Source: an uncultured candidatus Porisulfidus sp.
GTDB lineage: Bacteria; Pseudomonadota; Gammaproteobacteria; Poriferisulfidales; Poriferisulfidaceae
Reading direction: 5' to 3'
Assembly (NCBI GenBank): GCA_965204575.1
Contig: OZ241993.1
Coordinates: forward strand, 1,040,586 to 1,104,585
Length of the DNA stretch: 64,000 nucleotides
Positions within the stretch are counted from its first letter, which is position 1. Each line of letters opens with the position of its first letter. The translations under genes were made by a program, and so were the position numbers. Below the pieces are notes generated by a model. That model had not been told where the DNA came from. It saw only the letters and a list, made by a program, of their open reading frames with translations, and did no database searches. Shown piece by piece: positions 49,315 through 52,189 of this stretch.

Positions 49315-50727
49315 ATGCAAGAATCCCCCCCCCCCCCCTCAAACCATAACCGGCCTGAACTAGGGCCCGGCGCGGCCCGCGCGCCGGTCCTGCGCCGTCG
49401 CCGTCGCGACGGGTGGCTGCCGCCGGAGAAACGCCGTGCGCGTTCCAGGACGCGGGTGCGCCGGCAGGTGGCGGTCAACGTGCTGGGGGTGTGCTCCATG
49501 CTTTCGCACTCGGTGGCGCCGTACCTGGCGGCGGTCGCCGCGAAAAGCACCACCGCGGTCGGCGCGGTCGGCACGTTCGCCGCCCTGGCGCCCGACGAGG
49601 CGGCGGCGCAAAACCCGGGCCCGGCGGGAGCCAAGGGCGACAAGGGCGACAAGGGCCAGGTGGGCATTCCTGGACGACCGGGCGACAAGGGCGAGGAGAT
49701 GGGCGCACCCCCCGGTGAGAAGGGCGCAACAGGCGTAAAGGGCTCGCCCGGCGGAGAAGGTCAGAAGGGCGATCAGGGACGGCCGGGCAATCGAGGCAGC
49801 CGAGGCATACCGGGCGAAGAGGGGGCGAAGGGCGTGCTGGGATTCAAAGGCCTTCCGGGAGGCGCTGGCGATCAGGGCTCGAAGGGCCCGAGGGGCGATC
49901 CAGGTCCGCAGGGCTCGGCGGGTGTCAAGGGCGATACGGGCCAGAAGGGCGACCCGAAGGCGATCGGTGCCAAGGGCGATACAGGCGAGGCGGGCGCACC
50001 GGGTGCACCGGGCACGCCGGGCGCGCAGGGTTCGCAGGGCGCACAGGGCGCACAGGGCGCGCCGGGCGCACCGGGCGCATCGGGCACGCCGGGCGCCAAA
50101 GGGGAGGCAGGCGCGGGCGGCTTCGATTTTTCCGAGCAGGGGAAGGCGCGGGTCCGGGAGAAGGCCCGGGCCCTGCGGGAATCGGAGAACCCGGCCGACC
50201 AGCGGATCGGTCGGCTGCTGGAAGGCATCCTGGACGAGCTGGCGCCGGCCGCGGGGGGACAGCTGCAGTCGCTGCAGTCCGCCGGCGGGCGGGCGCTGCA
50301 GACCGAGGAGCCGGCGAGTGACAGCCTGACCCTGCTGCGGTATGCCTCCCGCTCCGACACGCCCCGGGCGGAGCAGGCCGGGGCGCTGATGGGCAGCATC
50401 TTCCTGAACCAGCGGGACATCGCCGAGAATCGCCAGAACATCGAGAAGAACCGGCAGGACATCGCCGGGCTGCGGGACGAGGACTACAGGCTGCGCAACC
50501 GCTCGCGCGAGGGGACCGCCCTGGCCATCGCGCTCGGCGGCATCCACTTCCCGCTGGACAAGGACCGGTCCGTCTCGCTGCGCTTCGGGCGCTTCGAGGG
50601 CGAGGAGGCGCTGGCGCTGGGCGCGTCCTTCCGCCTGCGGGAGAACTGGCAGATCGATTTTGGCATGGGCCGGGGGCTGAGCTACCGGCAGAACGGCTAT
50701 TCCGCCGGGCTGAGCTACAGCCGGTAG
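49315..50727 (+). CDS. Collagen-like trimeric autotransporter adhesin paralog 1 (leader, G-X-Y stalk, coiled-coil neck, YadA-type anchor)
   Basis: Arg-rich and hydrophobic leader ending [11 protein letters not shown]. About 55 G-X-Y triplets. [23 protein letters not shown] coiled coil. [11 protein letters not shown] followed by four short beta-strand-like segments ending [10 protein letters not shown]. Alternative starts are GTG 49297, GTG 49456 and ATG 49498. Confidence 0.8.
49325..49338 (+). repeat. Homopolymeric C tract, 14 nt, at the 5' end of the first collagen-like gene
   Basis: Counted directly. It lies 10 nt after the ATG at 49315, read as SPPPPS, and 118 nt before the alternative GTG start at 49456. 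Confidence 0.95.
49618..50121 (+). repeat. Collagen G-X-Y triplet region of paralog 1 (about 168 aa)
   Basis: [47 protein letters not shown] counted 14 G-X-K triplets, 15 Pro in Y against 3 in X, and two interruptions (GEEMGAPPG and GDPKAIGAK). Confidence 0.9.
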
Positions 50728-50764
50728 GCGGCCCCTGAGACTGAACCACGAGGAGGTGAGGAAG

Positions 50765-52189
50765 ATGAGCAGCGAGGAGAAGAGGCGGCCGGATTCGGAA
50801 GACGGGCTTCCGCCCGAGTCGAGGGAGGCCGCGGGGCGCGCGCCGGTCCTGCGCCGTCGCCGTCGCGACGGGTGGCTGCCGCCGGAGAAGCGCCGTGCGC
50901 GCTCCGGGACGCGGGTGCGCCGGCAGGTGGCGGTCAACGTGCTGGGGGTGTGCTCCATGCTTTCGCACTCGGTGGCGCCGTACCTGACGGCGGTCGCCGC
51001 GAAAAGCACGACCGCGGTCGGCGCGGTCGGCACGTTCGCCGCCCTGGCGCCCGACAAGGCGGCGGCGCAGGACCCGGGCCCGCCGGGCCAGAAGGGCGAA
51101 AAGGGCGACGCGGGCGTACAGGGCGCGCCGGGTTCGCAGGGCGCGCCGGGTGGCGAAAAGGGCGGCCGGGGCGACATGGGCCAGAAGGGCGAGCCGGGTG
51201 ATCCGGGCGCCACGGGCGAGAAGGGTTCGCAGGGCTCACCCGGCAGGCGTGGCATCACCGGCAACAAGGGCGAGGAGGGTGATCCGGGCGCGACAGGTAG
51301 TCAGGGTCAGAAGGGCGTTTTCGGCGAGCCGGGTGATCCGGGTCCGCAGGGCGCGGCAGGTGATCCGGGTCAGAAGGGCGCGATGGGTCAGAAGGGCGAG
51401 GCCGGCGGCCCGCCGGGCCAGAAGGGCCAAAAGGGGACAGCCGGCACAGCCGGCCCGTCGGGCGCCGCCGGTGCGCCGGGCGCAGCCGGTGCGCCGGGCG
51501 CCGCCGGTGCGCCGGGCGCTGCCGGTGCATCGGGCGCCGCCGGTGCGCCGGGCGAGAAAGGCGATGCGGGCGCGGGCGGCCTTGACTTCTCCGAGGAGGG
51601 GAAGGCGCGGATCCGGACCACGGCCCAGATCCTGCAGAAATCGGAGAATCCCGCCGACCGGCAGATCGGGGAGCTGCTCGAGGAGGTCCTGGACGAACTG
51701 GCGCCGGCCGCCGAGGGACAGCTGCAGTCGCTGCAGTCGGCCGGCGGGCAGGCGCTGCAGGCCGGGGAGGAGCCGACGGGCGACAGCCTGGCCCTGCTGC
51801 GCTACGCCGCCCGCTCCGACGTCACCGGGGCGGAGCAGGCCGGGGCGCTGGTGGGCAGCGTGCTCCTGAACCAGCGGGACATCGCCGAGAATCGCCAGAA
51901 CATCGAGAAGAACCGGCAGGACATCGCCGGGCTGCGGCACCAGTACCGCGACCTGCGCGACCGCTCGCGCGAGGGGACCGCCCTGGCCATCGCGCTCGGC
52001 GGCCTGCGCGTCCCGGTGGCCCGGGACTGGGCCGTGTCGCTGCGCTTCGGGCGCTTCGAGGGCGAGGAGGCGGTCGCGCTGGGCGCGGCCTTCCGCCTGA
52101 AGGAGGGCTGGCAGGTCGATTTCGCGCTGGGCCAGGGCCTGAGTTACTCGCAGAACGGCTATGCCGGTGGCGTGAGCTACAGCTGGTAG
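50765..52189 (+). CDS. Collagen-like trimeric autotransporter adhesin paralog 2
   Basis: AGGAGG lies 8 nt upstream of the ATG at 50765. Same architecture as paralog 1. The anchor ends [10 protein letters not shown], a terminal aromatic as expected for an outer-membrane beta-barrel signal. Confidence 0.85.
51077..51580 (+). repeat. Collagen G-X-Y triplet region of paralog 2 (about 168 aa)
   Basis: [19 protein letters not shown]...[17 protein letters not shown] counted 12 G-X-K triplets, 15 Pro in Y against 4 in X, and two one-residue interruptions (GAPGGEKGG and GEAGGPPG). Confidence 0.9.

What the first reader, a model, noticed from the sequence alone, without database searches (positions are those of the whole stretch)
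49315..52189. Collagen triple-helix stalk fused directly to a YadA-type trimeric autotransporter anchor, with no head domain
Seen: both proteins run leader, about 7 residues, about 168 aa of G-X-Y, a roughly 90-aa linker, a heptad-like [23 protein letters not shown] segment, then [11 protein letters not shown] and four alternating beta-like segments ending in ..SYSW or ..SYSR. Established: the YadA anchor is an obligate trimer with 3 x 4 strands forming one 12-stranded barrel. A collagen helix needs three chains held in register. Fibrillar collagens nucleate at the C-terminus and zip towards the N-terminus. TAA passengers also emerge C-terminus first. Inference: the anchor and neck act as the trimerisation and registration module, and a collagen rod replaces the usual coiled-coil stalk. 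The folding directions of the two systems match. The collagen rod itself would be the distal surface-exposed element.
Basis: partly seen in the sequence, partly recalled or inferred. Interest (0 to 1): 0.85.

Follow-up and report, generated by a model that had tools for sequence, protein, structure and literature searches.

The report
Headless collagen autotransporters with collagen-modifying operon
Two neighbouring bacterial genes encode outer-membrane-anchored collagen rods, and they sit in a conserved operon with bacterial versions of the enzymes that animals use to hydroxylate and sugar-coat collagen lysines, which suggests a bacterium that makes animal-style decorated collagen on its surface.

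Summary
Window 49315-50727 and 50765-52189 are two tandem paralogs. Each has a ~100-aa extended leader, a 170-aa G-X-Y region starting about 3 residues after the predicted cleavage site, a ~95-aa post-collagen region, an Asn-at-d heptad coiled coil and a YadA-type anchor. The anchor passes the Pfam threshold, and the model's best structural matches are AtaA, Hia and YadA anchors. No head domain is detected.

Collagen repeats next to a YadA anchor are already published (Haemophilus parasuis VtaA), so only the headless form is new.

In 9 independent lineages these genes lie beside a lysyl-hydroxylase homolog (LH3, mimivirus L230) and a fused GT25/COLGALT1-like plus PLOD-GT-like glycosyltransferase. 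Eight lineages also carry a divergent SecB. GalE and a P4H-like oxygenase are often present. Across 19 family members, lysine occupies the Y position 296 times and the X position never.

Best reading: cytoplasmic hydroxylation and Gal/Glc glycosylation of the unfolded chain, SecB-assisted export, then triple-helix formation on the surface. One lineage comes from a sponge microbiome. All function is inferred.

Verdict: new variant of known kinds; interest 0.72.

The parts
48798..48826 (+). Sigma-70-like promoter match (TTGATA, 17 nt spacer, TG, TAAAAT) upstream of the SecB-like gene; possible operon start
   Evidence: 10 of 12 positions match. This is a consensus match only. No + strand terminator-like site follows until 56416.
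48845..49285 (+). Divergent SecB-like export chaperone, first gene of the cassette
   Evidence: Pfam SecB E 1.2e-34. It scores below every NCBIfam SecB equivalog cut-off (131 vs 143), as do the cassette SecBs of five other loci. It is 30% identical to E. coli SecB and is not in the yibN-grxC-secB-gpsA context. It is linked to the cassette in 8 of 9 lineages despite different flanks and orders.
49315..50727 (+). Collagen autotransporter paralog A (ends ...SYSR)
   Evidence: Pfam Collagen plus YadA_anchor; aligned with paralog B.
49315..49608 (+). Extended bipartite leader of A: basic/aromatic motif (49381-49446, [22 protein letters not shown]), h1 (49468-49515), h2, and predicted A-A-A|Q cleavage site
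   Evidence: Motif and layout are conserved in distant homologs. The DNA is 96-100% identical to the leader of B. No Pfam ESPR match.
49618..50127 (+). Collagen G-X-Y region of A (170 aa, 54 triplets, two breaks)
   Evidence: Lys 14 at Y and 0 at X; Pro 14 at Y and 3 at X.
50128..50406 (+). Post-collagen region of A: conserved helix-turn-helix, variable spacer, conserved LLRYA helix
   Evidence: No Pfam family.
50407..50724 (+). Heptad coiled coil of A with Asn at d (50407-50475), pore helix ([12 protein letters not shown], 50506-50541) and four-strand anchor
   Evidence: assigned by alignment to the model of B.
50765..52189 (+). Collagen autotransporter paralog B (ends ...SYSW)
   Evidence: Pfam Collagen plus YadA_anchor. 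Strong Shine-Dalgarno sequence before ATG 50765.
50765..51067 (+). Extended leader of B (motif 50840-50905, h1 50927-50974, cleavage before Q at 51068)
51077..51586 (+). Collagen G-X-Y region of B (170 aa, 56 triplets)
   Evidence: Lys 11 at Y and 0 at X; Pro 15 at Y and 3 at X.
51587..51826 (+). Post-collagen region of B (helices, disordered spacer, short helix)
   Evidence: AlphaFold2 model: helices 6-20, 25-44 and 69-77; pLDDT below 50 for residues 48-64.
51827..51994 (+). 56-residue continuous helix of B: N@d coiled-coil stalk running into the pore helix
   Evidence: helix 84-139. Heptads read directly from the sequence: V..N...I..N...I..N...I..L...Y..L.
52028..52180 (+). Four beta-strands of the YadA-type anchor of B
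   Evidence: strands 151-201, pLDDT 89-98. The five best Foldseek matches are TAA anchors: AtaA 9vnj, Hia 3emo/2gr7/2gr8, YadA 2lme.
52233..52832 (+). Lysyl-hydroxylase-like 2OG/Fe(II) oxygenase (ORF opens at 52200; orthologs start at the Met at 52233). No signal peptide.
   Evidence: The best solved relatives are the LH domain of human LH3 (E 5.8e-14) and mimivirus L230 (1.1e-12), against 0.7 for prolyl 3-hydroxylase. The H-x-D...H...R residues align. Orthologs are 63-85% identical in all cassettes.
52816..54267 (+). Fused glycosyltransferase: N-terminal GT25 domain (about 52855-53394) and C-terminal PLOD-type GT domain (about 53563-54240). No signal peptide.
   Evidence: Pfam GT_PLOD 194.9 bits and Glyco_transf_25 64.1 bits. 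PDB matches: LH3 GT domain 1.8e-40, mimivirus R699 8e-34, COLGALT1 catalytic domain 1.8e-23. The WRGG loop and the FVDxYD, CWP, DDQ, HxNGP and EDD motifs are conserved.
54287..54709 (+). Small Cys-rich ORF with a signal-peptide-like N-terminus; function unknown
   Evidence: No Pfam or NCBIfam hit. Present only in the closest relative, L001.
54738..55031 (+). Second small Cys-rich ORF with a signal-peptide-like N-terminus; function unknown
55084..56055 (+). UDP-glucose 4-epimerase GalE (would supply UDP-galactose)
   Evidence: TIGR01179 392.5 bits, cut-off 262.3. Also follows the GT gene in L001, L002/L013/L014 and L010.
56416..56432 (+). First terminator-like hairpin on the + strand after the cassette
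   Evidence: pattern match only.
56723..57349 (+). Second 2OG/Fe(II) oxygenase, prolyl-4-hydroxylase/PKHD-like
   Evidence: PF13640. H-x-D...H...R invariant. A profile of 8 sequences hits a PKHD hydroxylase at 1.7e-9 and algal and viral prolyl 4-hydroxylases at 1e-4 to 1e-3, with no LH hit. Relatives lie next to the cassette in L002, L005 and L011.
47595..48422 (-). dapD, left flank of the inserted cassette
   Evidence: TIGR00965 436 bits. In E. coli K-12, dapD-glnD-map are contiguous.
58220..60898 (-). glnD, right flank of the cassette (map follows at 60859-61629)
   Evidence: TIGR01693 779 bits; map TIGR00500 317 bits.

Best explanation
The locus is a roughly 9-kb inserted cassette, spanning SecB through the second oxygenase. 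I read it as building a head-less, post-translationally decorated collagen fibre on the outer membrane.

Shown by sequence and structure comparison:
- Two paralogous type Vc (trimeric) autotransporters have a mature passenger that is essentially one 170-residue collagen segment. As a triple helix it would be about 49 nm long.
- They are followed by a lysyl-hydroxylase homolog, a fused COLGALT1-like plus LH3-GT-like glycosyltransferase, GalE, and a prolyl-hydroxylase-like oxygenase. A divergent SecB precedes them.

Inferred mechanism:
1. The chains are made in the cytoplasm. SecB holds them unfolded, possibly by docking on the conserved Arg/Trp-rich motif of the extended leader.
2. The signal-less hydroxylase converts Lys at Y positions (X-Lys-Gly) to hydroxylysine.
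3. The GT25 domain adds galactose, with UDP-Gal supplied by GalE, and the PLOD-type GT domain adds glucose. The second oxygenase may hydroxylate Pro at Y.
4. The modified chain crosses SecYEG after translation and the leader is cut before a conserved Gln.
5. Three anchors form the 12-strand barrel. The N@d coiled coil and the conserved post-collagen helices bring three chains together, and the triple helix zips up outside the cell from C to N.

The exposed collagen is the fast-diverging part. Its likely role is a glycosylated surface nap or adhesin, acting in autoaggregation or in contact with, or mimicry of, host collagen. At least one lineage lives in a sponge.
For: Architecture:
- Pfam Collagen and YadA_anchor are above threshold and no head families appear.
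- AlphaFold2 gives a helix plus four strands. The five best PDB matches are TAA anchors, with target TM 0.67-0.85.

Enzymes:
- The first oxygenase matches the LH3 and L230 lysyl-hydroxylase domains (6e-14, 1e-12) with the Fe/2OG residues aligned.
- The GT matches the LH3 GT domain (2e-40), R699 (8e-34) and COLGALT1 (2e-23) with catalytic motifs conserved.
- GalE is above the equivalog cut-off.
- The second oxygenase groups with P4H/PKHD structures.

Linkage:
- TAA, LH and GT are adjacent in every lineage with readable flanks: window/L001, L002/L013/L014, L003, L004, L005, L006 (an alphaproteobacterial MAG), L010 and L011.
- SecB is present in all of these except L006.
- Gene orders are shuffled and flanking genes differ.
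- The window cassette splits the dapD-glnD-map string that is contiguous in E. coli.

Substrate signature:
- Lys is at Y 296 times and at X never, across 19 family members. In the window the count is 25:0, and Pro is 29 at Y against 6 at X.

Independent parallel:
- Phage contigs carry a GT25-GT_PLOD-2OG fusion directly after a 1520-aa protein with long Lys-at-Y collagen runs.

Precedent:
- Type V passengers are glycosylated in the cytoplasm before export, and the TAA EmaA is SecB-dependent (PMC8151025).

Exposure and habitat:
- The collagen region is about 53% identical between paralogs (about 30% outside Gly), against 96% for the leader and 70-84% for stalk and anchor.
- L013 is from the Aplysina aerophoba sponge metagenome.
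Against: - Nothing here is experimental. No enzyme activity, modification, trimer or surface location was observed.
- Bacterial GT25 enzymes are usually LOS/LPS galactosyltransferases, so the sugar acceptor could be something else.
- E/D at X with K at Y is also a charge-pair design that stabilises bacterial collagens (my own knowledge). The Lys bias is therefore not proof of hydroxylation.
- A chain bearing Glc-Gal-Hyl every few triplets would have to pass SecYEG and the narrow TAA pore. No precedent for this was looked up or found here.
- Whether the SecB is an extra paralog or the genome's only SecB could not be checked. L006 has none within 8 kb.
- The second oxygenase is only weakly assigned (P4H hits at 1e-4), and its model failed (pLDDT 32).
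- Paralog A ends in Arg instead of the aromatic residue usual for outer-membrane barrels.
- A disordered spacer separates the collagen from the stalk.
- Only a monomer model could be made.
Confidence: 0.6

Rival explanations
1. Plain, unmodified collagen-like autotransporter adhesins. The neighbouring oxygenases and glycosyltransferase would act on another substrate, such as LPS/LOS or another protein, and their adjacency would be incidental or due to co-regulation only.
For: The source annotations call these enzymes only 'glycosyltransferase family 25' or 'GR25 family glycosyltransferase involved in LPS biosynthesis'. Many characterised bacterial collagens need no hydroxylation (my own knowledge).
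Against: The linkage survives gene-order shuffling across alpha- and gammaproteobacterial MAGs with different flanks. The nearest solved relatives of all three catalytic domains are collagen-specific enzymes. Lys is 296:0 at the hydroxylase-accessible position. Phages show the same collagen-plus-enzyme pairing.
Confidence: 0.15
2. The YadA anchor and the adjoining coiled coil would alone set the trimer and the one-residue stagger of the collagen helix, and the collagen rod would replace the coiled-coil stalk as a rigid continuation.
For: The anchor and the N@d heptads are canonical. They are 100% identical between the paralogs over the 23-residue coil. Nucleation of collagen from its C-terminal end by a trimeric coiled coil is established for collectins (my own knowledge).
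Against: A spacer of about 17 residues with pLDDT below 50 lies between collagen and stalk. In relatives it is longer and low-complexity, for example the QQSPG repeats in L004. That is hard to reconcile with register transmission. A conserved helix-turn-helix directly after the last triplet is present in all relatives and is better placed to do the job.
Confidence: 0.25
3. The two paralogs co-assemble into heterotrimers, analogous to the alpha1/alpha2 chains of animal collagen, through their near-identical leaders, coiled coils and anchors.
For: They are co-oriented tandem genes 37 nt apart. The coiled coil is identical and the leader is 96% identical, with DNA-level homogenisation. The collagen spans are the same length (170 aa). 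Paralog A has a non-aromatic C-terminus that might depend on B. Several genomes keep 2-3 paralogs.
Against: To my knowledge, no heterotrimeric TAA has been described. Four of the nine lineages have a single gene (L002, L003, L010, L011). The breaks in the G-X-Y pattern are at different positions in A and B.
Confidence: 0.12
4. The genes are remnants of a prophage tail fibre rather than cell-surface proteins.
For: Collagen repeats with the same enzyme family occur in phage tail regions.
Against: There are no phage genes in the cassette or its flanks. The C-terminus is a bona fide outer-membrane anchor. An export leader is present.
Confidence: 0.03

Closest known systems
VtaA trimeric autotransporters of Haemophilus (Glaesserella) parasuis
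   Same: Collagen triple-helix repeat domains sit directly before a C-terminal YadA anchor. There are multiple paralogs per genome, and an extended signal peptide is present (PMC6211672; PMC6755704).
   Different: VtaAs carry a Pfam ESPR, 1-4 YadA heads and stalk domains distal to the collagen. Here there is no head, stalk or ESPR match and collagen is the whole distal passenger. The VtaA papers read here mention no linked collagen-modifying enzymes.
YadA / Hia / AtaA membrane anchors (type Vc secretion)
   Same: A helix followed by four strands per protomer. Pfam YadA_anchor is above threshold. The best structural matches have rmsd 1.9-2.8 A. N@d heptads precede the anchor.
   Different: Sequence identity is only 17-24%. 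The anchor subfamily is small: 157 cluster representatives at E<=1e-3 among 1.84 billion proteins.
Animal collagen lysine modification: LH3/PLOD3 with GLT25D1/COLGALT1
   Same: Homologs of all three catalytic modules are present with catalytic residues conserved: lysyl hydroxylase, Hyl galactosyltransferase and Gal-Hyl glucosyltransferase. The substrate has Lys at Y, as in animal collagens (PMC12003778).
   Different: The domain wiring differs. Here it is GT25 plus PLOD-GT fused, with a separate 199-aa hydroxylase; in animals it is GT-AC-LH in PLOD, with a separate two-domain COLGALT. The enzymes appear cytoplasmic (no signal peptide), not in the ER lumen. Identity to animal PLOD GT domains is only 36-42%, the same as to the phage enzymes, so this is not a recent transfer from animals.
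Mimivirus L230 (lysyl hydroxylase/glucosyltransferase) and R699 (Gal-Hyl glucosyltransferase)
   Same: These are non-animal collagen-modifying enzymes of the same families, encoded together with their collagen substrates to decorate a surface fibre layer.
   Different: That system is a virus of amoebae. It has no membrane anchor, no secretion step and no GT25 fusion.
Collectins and class A scavenger receptor (collagen next to a trimeric alpha-helical coiled coil)
   Same: A collagen segment is joined at its C-terminal side to a trimeric coiled coil that can nucleate zipper-like folding (my own knowledge).
   Different: Those are soluble or type II membrane proteins of animals. Here the coiled coil continues into an outer-membrane barrel, and a spacer intervenes.
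BclA of the Bacillus exosporium, and Scl1/Scl2 and Lcl adhesins
   Same: These are bacterial surface collagens. BclA is a glycosylated collagen hair layer (my own knowledge). Weak, composition-driven NCBIfam matches to SclA, SclB and Lcl were found.
   Different: All those scores are far below their cut-offs (65-81 bits against 325-500). The anchoring differs (LPXTG or exosporium basal layer against a beta-barrel). BclA carries Thr-linked rhamnose-type glycans rather than Hyl-linked hexoses.
Cytoplasmic glycosylation of type V passengers by HMW1C-like N-glycosyltransferases and BAHT heptosyltransferases
   Same: A dedicated, co-encoded, signal-less glycosyltransferase would modify the passenger before Sec export. 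SecB-dependent post-translational targeting is known for the TAA EmaA (PMC8151025).
   Different: The enzyme families and chemistry are different. That review lists only those two mechanisms, so Hyl-linked Gal-Glc would be a third.
Specialised SecB paralogs of toxin-antitoxin-chaperone systems (e.g. M. tuberculosis Rv1957)
   Same: A SecB-fold chaperone is encoded next to, and dedicated to, one client, which it recognises through a short linear segment (my own knowledge).
   Different: The client here would be an exported autotransporter, not an antitoxin. Dedication is inferred only from gene linkage.

Membership tests
Trimeric autotransporter adhesin (type Vc) | C-terminal YadA-like membrane anchor domain (PF03895) above the gathering score | tested here: met
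   33.1 and 30.8 bits against 22.7. The L006 homolog scores 39.5 bits.
Trimeric autotransporter adhesin (type Vc) | One pore helix plus four beta-strands per chain, superposable on solved anchors | tested here: met
   AlphaFold2 gives helix 84-139 and strands 151-201. The top five Foldseek matches are AtaA, Hia (three entries) and YadA, at E 1.4e-5 to 2e-3.
Trimeric autotransporter adhesin (type Vc) | Obligate homotrimer forming a 12-strand barrel | not testable with these tools
   Only monomer prediction was available.
Trimeric autotransporter adhesin (type Vc) | N-terminal Sec signal peptide | tested here: inconclusive
   No signal-peptide predictor was available. The sequence shows a basic region, two hydrophobic segments and a conserved A-x-A|Q site in 19 homologs.
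Trimeric autotransporter adhesin (type Vc) | Aromatic C-terminal residue (outer-membrane beta-signal) | tested here: inconclusive
   Paralog B ends in W. Paralog A ends in R, as does its ortholog in L001.
Trimeric autotransporter adhesin (type Vc) | Head domain (YadA_head, Trp-ring, GIN etc.) in the passenger; typical but not obligatory | tested here: not met
   No such Pfam family at E<=0.1 or at E<=10 on the sub-regions.
Collagen triple-helix protein | Long uninterrupted G-X-Y repeats; Pfam PF01391 above threshold | tested here: met
   54 and 56 triplets; 78.9 and 83.2 bits against 27.2.
Collagen triple-helix protein | Forms a protease-resistant triple helix | not testable with these tools
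   Needs CD melting and trypsin digestion.
VtaA family (H. parasuis) | ESPR plus YadA head and stalk domains distal to the collagen repeats | tested here: not met
   No ESPR, head or stalk hit. The VtaA architecture is taken from PMC6211672.
ESPR extended signal peptide (PF13018) | Match to the ESPR profile | tested here: not met
   No hit at E<=10 on the isolated leaders. The n1-h1-n2-h2-c layout is only analogous.
Collagen lysyl hydroxylase (PLOD LH domain) | Closest solved relatives are LH domains, and the Fe(II) triad H-x-D...H and the 2OG-binding Arg are conserved | tested here: met
   LH3 5.8e-14 and L230 1.1e-12. PHHD, THVH and GTRY align to the LH3 catalytic residues.
Collagen lysyl hydroxylase (PLOD LH domain) | Hydroxylates Lys in X-Lys-Gly | not testable with these tools
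   Indirect only: Lys 296 at Y and 0 at X in the linked collagens.
PLOD-type glycosyltransferase domain (PF25342) | Profile match above threshold with the metal and UDP-sugar motifs | tested here: met
   194.9 bits against 27. WRGG, FVDGYD, CWPD, ADDQ and HANGP align to the LH3 motifs.
GT25 / COLGALT catalytic domain (PF01755) | Profile match above threshold and similarity to the COLGALT1 catalytic domain | tested here: met
   64.1 bits against 24. COLGALT1 matches at 1.8e-23 with the EDD motif aligned. Donor and acceptor specificity were not tested.
SecB | SecB fold family (PF02556) | tested here: met
   E 1.2e-34.
SecB | Equivalog-level match to housekeeping SecB (NCBIfam cut-offs) | tested here: not met
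   131.2 against 143, and 91.2 against 102.8. Five other cassette SecBs score 116-132. Identity to E. coli SecB is 30%.
UDP-glucose 4-epimerase GalE | TIGR01179 above the cut-off | tested here: met
   392.5 against 262.3.
Collagen-type prolyl 4-hydroxylase (second oxygenase) | Specific similarity to P4H catalytic domains | tested here: inconclusive
   PF13640 scores 46.5 bits. The profile hits a PKHD hydroxylase at 1.7e-9 and Cr-P4H and PBCV-1 P4H at 1e-4 to 1e-3. The structure model was unusable.

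The most novel reading that the evidence does not exclude
Proteobacteria, including sponge-associated lineages, run a complete animal-type collagen lysine maturation pathway (Lys to Hyl to Gal-Hyl to Glc-Gal-Hyl, perhaps with Hyp) in their cytoplasm. 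The substrate would be the passenger of a trimeric autotransporter, held unfolded by a dedicated SecB that docks on a conserved Arg/Trp-rich leader motif. This would be the first hydroxylysine-glycosylated bacterial collagen and a third route of type V passenger glycosylation. It would also be a deep bacterial/phage branch of the PLOD/COLGALT enzyme families, bearing on where animal collagen modification came from.
Probability: 0.4. Interest if true: 0.85.

Novelty: new variant of a known kind. Interest (0 to 1): 0.72.

Why it matters
- In the literature read here, hydroxylysine-linked Gal-Glc is described for collagens and collagen-like segments of animals, with giant viruses as the known exception. 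A conserved bacterial and phage branch of all three enzyme modules, each encoded next to its collagen substrate, would move the origin question for collagen modification into prokaryotes and make it testable.
- It would add a third kind of cytoplasmic glycosylation to type V secretion. It would also give a natural case of a dedicated SecB and an unusual leader serving an autotransporter.
- A review of the mimivirus enzymes notes that glycosylated collagen cannot yet be made in bacteria because the human glycosyltransferases express poorly (PMC9546862). A native bacterial operon with hydroxylase, Gal- and Glc-transferase and GalE is an obvious toolkit for this.
- In a sponge microbiome, a surface coat of host-like decorated collagen suggests a concrete mechanism for attachment to, or camouflage within, the host matrix.

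Tried and rejected
- The word-index homolog search with the C-terminal 204 aa found one protein only. The exhaustive phmmer search was needed.
- An exact look-up of the 100%-identical GT cluster representative found no contig on record, so the source genome could not be named.
- A literature search for MAG accessions (JAPONY, APA_bin, OZ numbers) returned only noise. The MKWU accession did resolve to the Aplysina aerophoba metagenome.
- I considered the 5' conserved 240 nt as a possible untranslated RNA element. I rejected this because the encoded motif is conserved at protein level in homologs with 40-50% identical C-termini.
- I considered recent gene transfer from an animal host. I rejected this because the PLOD-GT domain is 36-42% identical to animal PLODs and 33-44% to the phage enzymes.
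- ESPR membership is rejected.
- The AlphaFold2 model of the second oxygenase, from a 5-sequence alignment, gave pLDDT 32.5 and was discarded with no fold search.
With A5 it found only two loci, both of the L002 lineage.
- Trimer prediction and a whole-genome search for a second secB were not possible with the tools.
- The long antisense ORFs over the collagen genes (49360-51267 and 51236-52540, minus strand) were dismissed as artefacts of GC-rich, GGN-periodic sequence.

Full report
OBSERVATION

The interval holds two intact, co-oriented ORFs. The genes end at 50727 and 52189.

Both proteins match Pfam Collagen (E 2.5e-22 and 1.1e-23) and YadA_anchor (33.1 and 30.8 bits against a gathering score of 22.7). 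No head, stalk or neck family appears at E<=0.1, and nothing more appears when the sub-regions are scanned at E<=10.

The G-X-Y region covers ORF residues 108-277 in both proteins. It holds 54 and 56 triplets, with two short breaks each.

An AlphaFold2 model of the last 203 residues of paralog B, built on a 29-sequence alignment, has mean pLDDT 85. It shows short helices at 6-20, 25-44 and 69-77, a low-confidence stretch at 48-64, one continuous helix at 84-139, and four strands at 151-201 with pLDDT 89-98. Its five best matches among solved structures are all trimeric-autotransporter anchors: AtaA 9vnj, Hia 3emo, 2gr7 and 2gr8, and YadA 2lme. E-values run from 1.4e-5 to 2e-3, with rmsd 1.9-2.8 A.

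The heptads before the anchor read V..N...I..N...I..N...I..L...Y..L. That is three Asn-at-d layers, a motif I know from memory as typical of autotransporter stalks.

THREE CORRECTIONS

First, the leader is not a short signal peptide. About 100 residues precede the collagen. Their layout is conserved in homologs whose C-termini are only 40-50% identical:
- a P-x-L-R-x-R-x-R-G-x-x-W-W-x-P type motif;
- a basic stretch;
- a first hydrophobic segment (LGVxSMLS);
- a second hydrophobic segment;
- a conserved A-x-A|Q site.

The region is therefore translated. It does not match Pfam ESPR.

Second, collagen starts one to three residues after the conserved Gln. The mature protein is essentially collagen from its first residues.

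Third, the '90-aa linker' is structured in part. A helix-turn-helix abuts the last triplet, and an LLRYA-type helix follows. Both are conserved across the family. They are separated by a variable, low-complexity spacer.

WHAT SURROUNDS IT

All the following genes are on the + strand, with gaps of 10-52 nt or overlaps, up to GalE:
- SecB-like, 48845-49285 (Pfam SecB, 1.2e-34);
- paralog A;
- paralog B;
- a 2OG/Fe(II) oxygenase, 52233-52832;
- a 483-aa protein with Glyco_transf_25 and GT_PLOD domains, 52816-54267;
- two small Cys-rich ORFs with signal-like N-termini;
- GalE, 55084-56055 (TIGR01179, 392 bits against 262);
- a second 2OG oxygenase, 56723-57349, after a terminator-like hairpin.

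A promoter-like site lies before SecB.

The first oxygenase finds the lysyl-hydroxylase domain of human LH3 (5.8e-14) and mimivirus L230 (1.1e-12) as its best solved relatives. Prolyl 3-hydroxylase scores 0.7. The H-x-D, H and Arg residues align.

The C-terminal half of the glycosyltransferase matches the LH3 glycosyltransferase domain (1.8e-40) and mimivirus R699 (8e-34). The N-terminal half matches the catalytic domain of COLGALT1 (1.8e-23). The recognisable metal and sugar-nucleotide motifs are conserved.

A profile of the second oxygenase hits PKHD-type and algal or viral prolyl 4-hydroxylases (1.7e-9 to 1e-3) and no lysyl hydroxylase. Neither the first oxygenase nor the glycosyltransferase has a hydrophobic N-terminus: the catalytic domains start at the first residues. 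I therefore take them to be cytoplasmic.

IS THE LINKAGE MEANINGFUL?

I approached the question from both sides.

Starting from the glycosyltransferase, there are 168 homologs at E<=1e-10. Every close relative whose neighbourhood I could read has a collagen-plus-YadA-anchor gene beside it.

Starting from the anchor, an exhaustive phmmer search of 1.84 billion cluster representatives gave 157 hits at E<=1e-3. Thirteen of these carry at least 30 residues of G-X-Y. The three whose contigs I looked up gave two with the hydroxylase and glycosyltransferase adjacent. The third is a 7-kb contig filled by three tandem collagen genes.

A tblastn survey of all loci gives the following picture:

Lineage | Autotransporter + hydroxylase + GT | SecB | Other
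window/L001 | yes | yes | GalE; second oxygenase in the window only (the L001 contig ends after GalE)
L002/L013/L014 | yes | yes | GalE, second oxygenase
L003 (Arenicellales MAG) | yes | yes | -
L004 | yes | yes (between autotransporter paralogs) | -
L005 | yes | yes | second oxygenase
L006 (alphaproteobacterial MAG) | yes | no | -
L010 | yes | yes | GalE
L011 | yes | yes (opposite strand) | second oxygenase

Gene order differs between lineages, and the flanking genes are unrelated. In the window the cassette interrupts dapD-glnD-map, which are contiguous in E. coli K-12. This is the pattern of a mobile functional module.

All cassette SecBs fall below the NCBIfam SecB equivalog cut-offs. The window copy is 30% identical to E. 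coli SecB and is not in the yibN-grxC-secB-gpsA context.

SUBSTRATE SIGNATURE

In the two window proteins all 25 lysines of the G-X-Y runs are at Y, and Pro is 29 at Y against 6 at X. Over 19 family members Lys is 296 at Y and 0 at X. X-Lys-Gly is the position modified in collagens (PMC12003778).

The caveat is that acidic-X/Lys-Y triplets also stabilise bacterial collagens electrostatically (my own knowledge).

An independent parallel comes from two 79-kb phage contigs. A three-domain GT25-GT_PLOD-2OG enzyme follows directly after a 1520-aa protein in the tail-gene region. That protein contains 267- and 162-residue collagen runs with Lys at Y.

MECHANISM PROPOSED

Shown: the domain identities, the linkage, the lysine bias, and the lack of signal peptides on the enzymes.

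Inferred:
- The chains are modified in the cytoplasm while unfolded. Lys at Y is hydroxylated. Galactose is added by the GT25 half, using UDP-Gal from GalE. Glucose is added by the PLOD-type half. Pro at Y may be hydroxylated by the second oxygenase.
- SecB keeps the chains export-competent. From memory, SecB prefers basic and aromatic peptides, and the Arg/Trp-rich leader motif fits that preference.
- Export is post-translational. The anchor trimerises in the outer membrane, and the helix zips up outside the cell.

A review of type V secretion documents three relevant points: cytoplasmic glycosylation of passengers before export, SecB-dependent targeting of the autotransporter EmaA, and only two known glycosylation mechanisms, NGT and BAHT (PMC8151025). 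This would be a third.

Between the paralogs the leader is 96% identical, with 96-100% DNA identity. The coiled coil is 84% identical and the anchor 70%. The collagen is 53%, which is about 30% outside Gly. This fits an exposed, diversifying rod on conserved export and anchoring modules.

My confidence by step:
- collagen autotransporter: about 0.9;
- substrate of the linked hydroxylase and glycosyltransferase: about 0.65;
- dedicated SecB: about 0.5;
- biological role (nap, adhesin, host-matrix contact or mimicry): about 0.3.

COMPARISON WITH WHAT IS KNOWN

Collagen next to a YadA anchor is published. All 13 VtaA proteins of H. parasuis Nagasaki have ESPR, 1-4 heads and stalk domains, then 2-8 collagen repeat domains, then the anchor (PMC6211672). 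Deleting the collagen domains of VtaA2 lowers collagen binding (PMC6755704). The window proteins fail the head, stalk and ESPR features of that family, so they are a head-less variant with a different leader.

The enzymes belong to the PLOD and COLGALT families but are wired differently and are not close to animal sequences. The PLOD-GT domain is 36-42% identical to animal PLODs and 33-44% to the phage enzymes. This argues against recent capture from a host.

Earlier comparative work predicted that bacterial dioxygenases modify co-encoded collagen-like proteins, but it concerned other hydroxylase families paired with sulfotransferases (PMC2938197). My searches found no paper describing PLOD/COLGALT-type enzymes linked to bacterial collagens or autotransporters. 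The library searched is incomplete.

HABITAT

L013 is contig MKWU01002693.1. MKWU00000000 is the Aplysina aerophoba sponge metagenome assembly (PMC5649159). L002, a gammaproteobacterial MAG labelled APA_bin_21, gave the same identity values as L013 for every cassette gene. The window's own source was not identified.

VERDICT

The sequence observation is right and the architecture call is right. The folding idea is reasonable but unproven, and in one respect doubtful because of the spacer.

The locus as a whole is more interesting than the finding as written. It is a conserved, mobile cassette that couples a head-less collagen autotransporter to homologs of the animal collagen lysine-modification enzymes and to a divergent SecB. 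I rate it a new variant of known kinds, with interest 0.72.

Noticed in passing
L007 and L008: 3373-7935 and 8001-9902: Two 79-kb phage contigs with tape-measure and tail genes carry a three-domain GT25 + PLOD-GT + 2OG oxygenase. It lies directly after a 1520-aa protein with 267- and 162-residue collagen runs that have Lys at Y (GDKGLKGILG...). PLOD-like collagen modification thus seems to exist in bacteriophages too.
   Followed up: partly
window 47595-48422 and 58220-61629: The cassette sits between dapD and glnD-map. These three genes are contiguous and co-oriented in E. coli K-12, so about 9.8 kb appears to have been inserted into a conserved gene string. The cassette also has the highest G+C content of the window (0.69-0.74).
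   Followed up: yes
window 49370-49610 versus 50830-51070: The leader-coding DNA of the two paralogs is 96-100% identical, while the collagen-coding DNA is only 47-68% identical. This is a mosaic pattern suggesting gene conversion of the export module and diversification of the rod.
   Followed up: partly
window 50716-50727; L001 2002-2013: Paralog A ends in ...SYSR rather than in an aromatic residue, and its ortholog in the related contig does the same. This is unusual for an outer-membrane beta-barrel.
   Followed up: no
window 54287-54709 and 54738-55031: Two small Cys-rich ORFs with signal-peptide-like N-termini and lower G+C lie between the glycosyltransferase and GalE. They have no family match and are shared only with the closest relative, L001.
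   Followed up: partly
L004 8068-16028; L009 3-7013: Some genomes carry three tandem collagen-anchor paralogs. In L004 the SecB gene lies between the second and third paralog. L009 is a 7-kb contig made up entirely of three collagen genes.
   Followed up: partly
L003 7709-9184: The Arenicellales homolog has five tandem ANERDIR heptads before the anchor. This is a tandem expansion of the Asn-at-d coiled coil.
   Followed up: no
window 16000-30000: This is a lower-G+C stretch (0.50-0.57). It holds two HipA-type kinase genes (21138-22361 on the minus strand, 24468-25769 on the plus strand) and a DDE transposase (26155-27774 on the minus strand). It looks like a separate island among housekeeping genes (ClpB, ProS, PDH E1, Lpd, ThrS).
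   Followed up: no
window 49360-51267 and 51236-52540, minus strand: Very long antisense ORFs (635 and 434 aa) run across the collagen genes. They are a by-product of GC-rich, GGN-periodic coding sequence, and a simple GC3-based gene picker preferred them over the real genes.
   Followed up: yes
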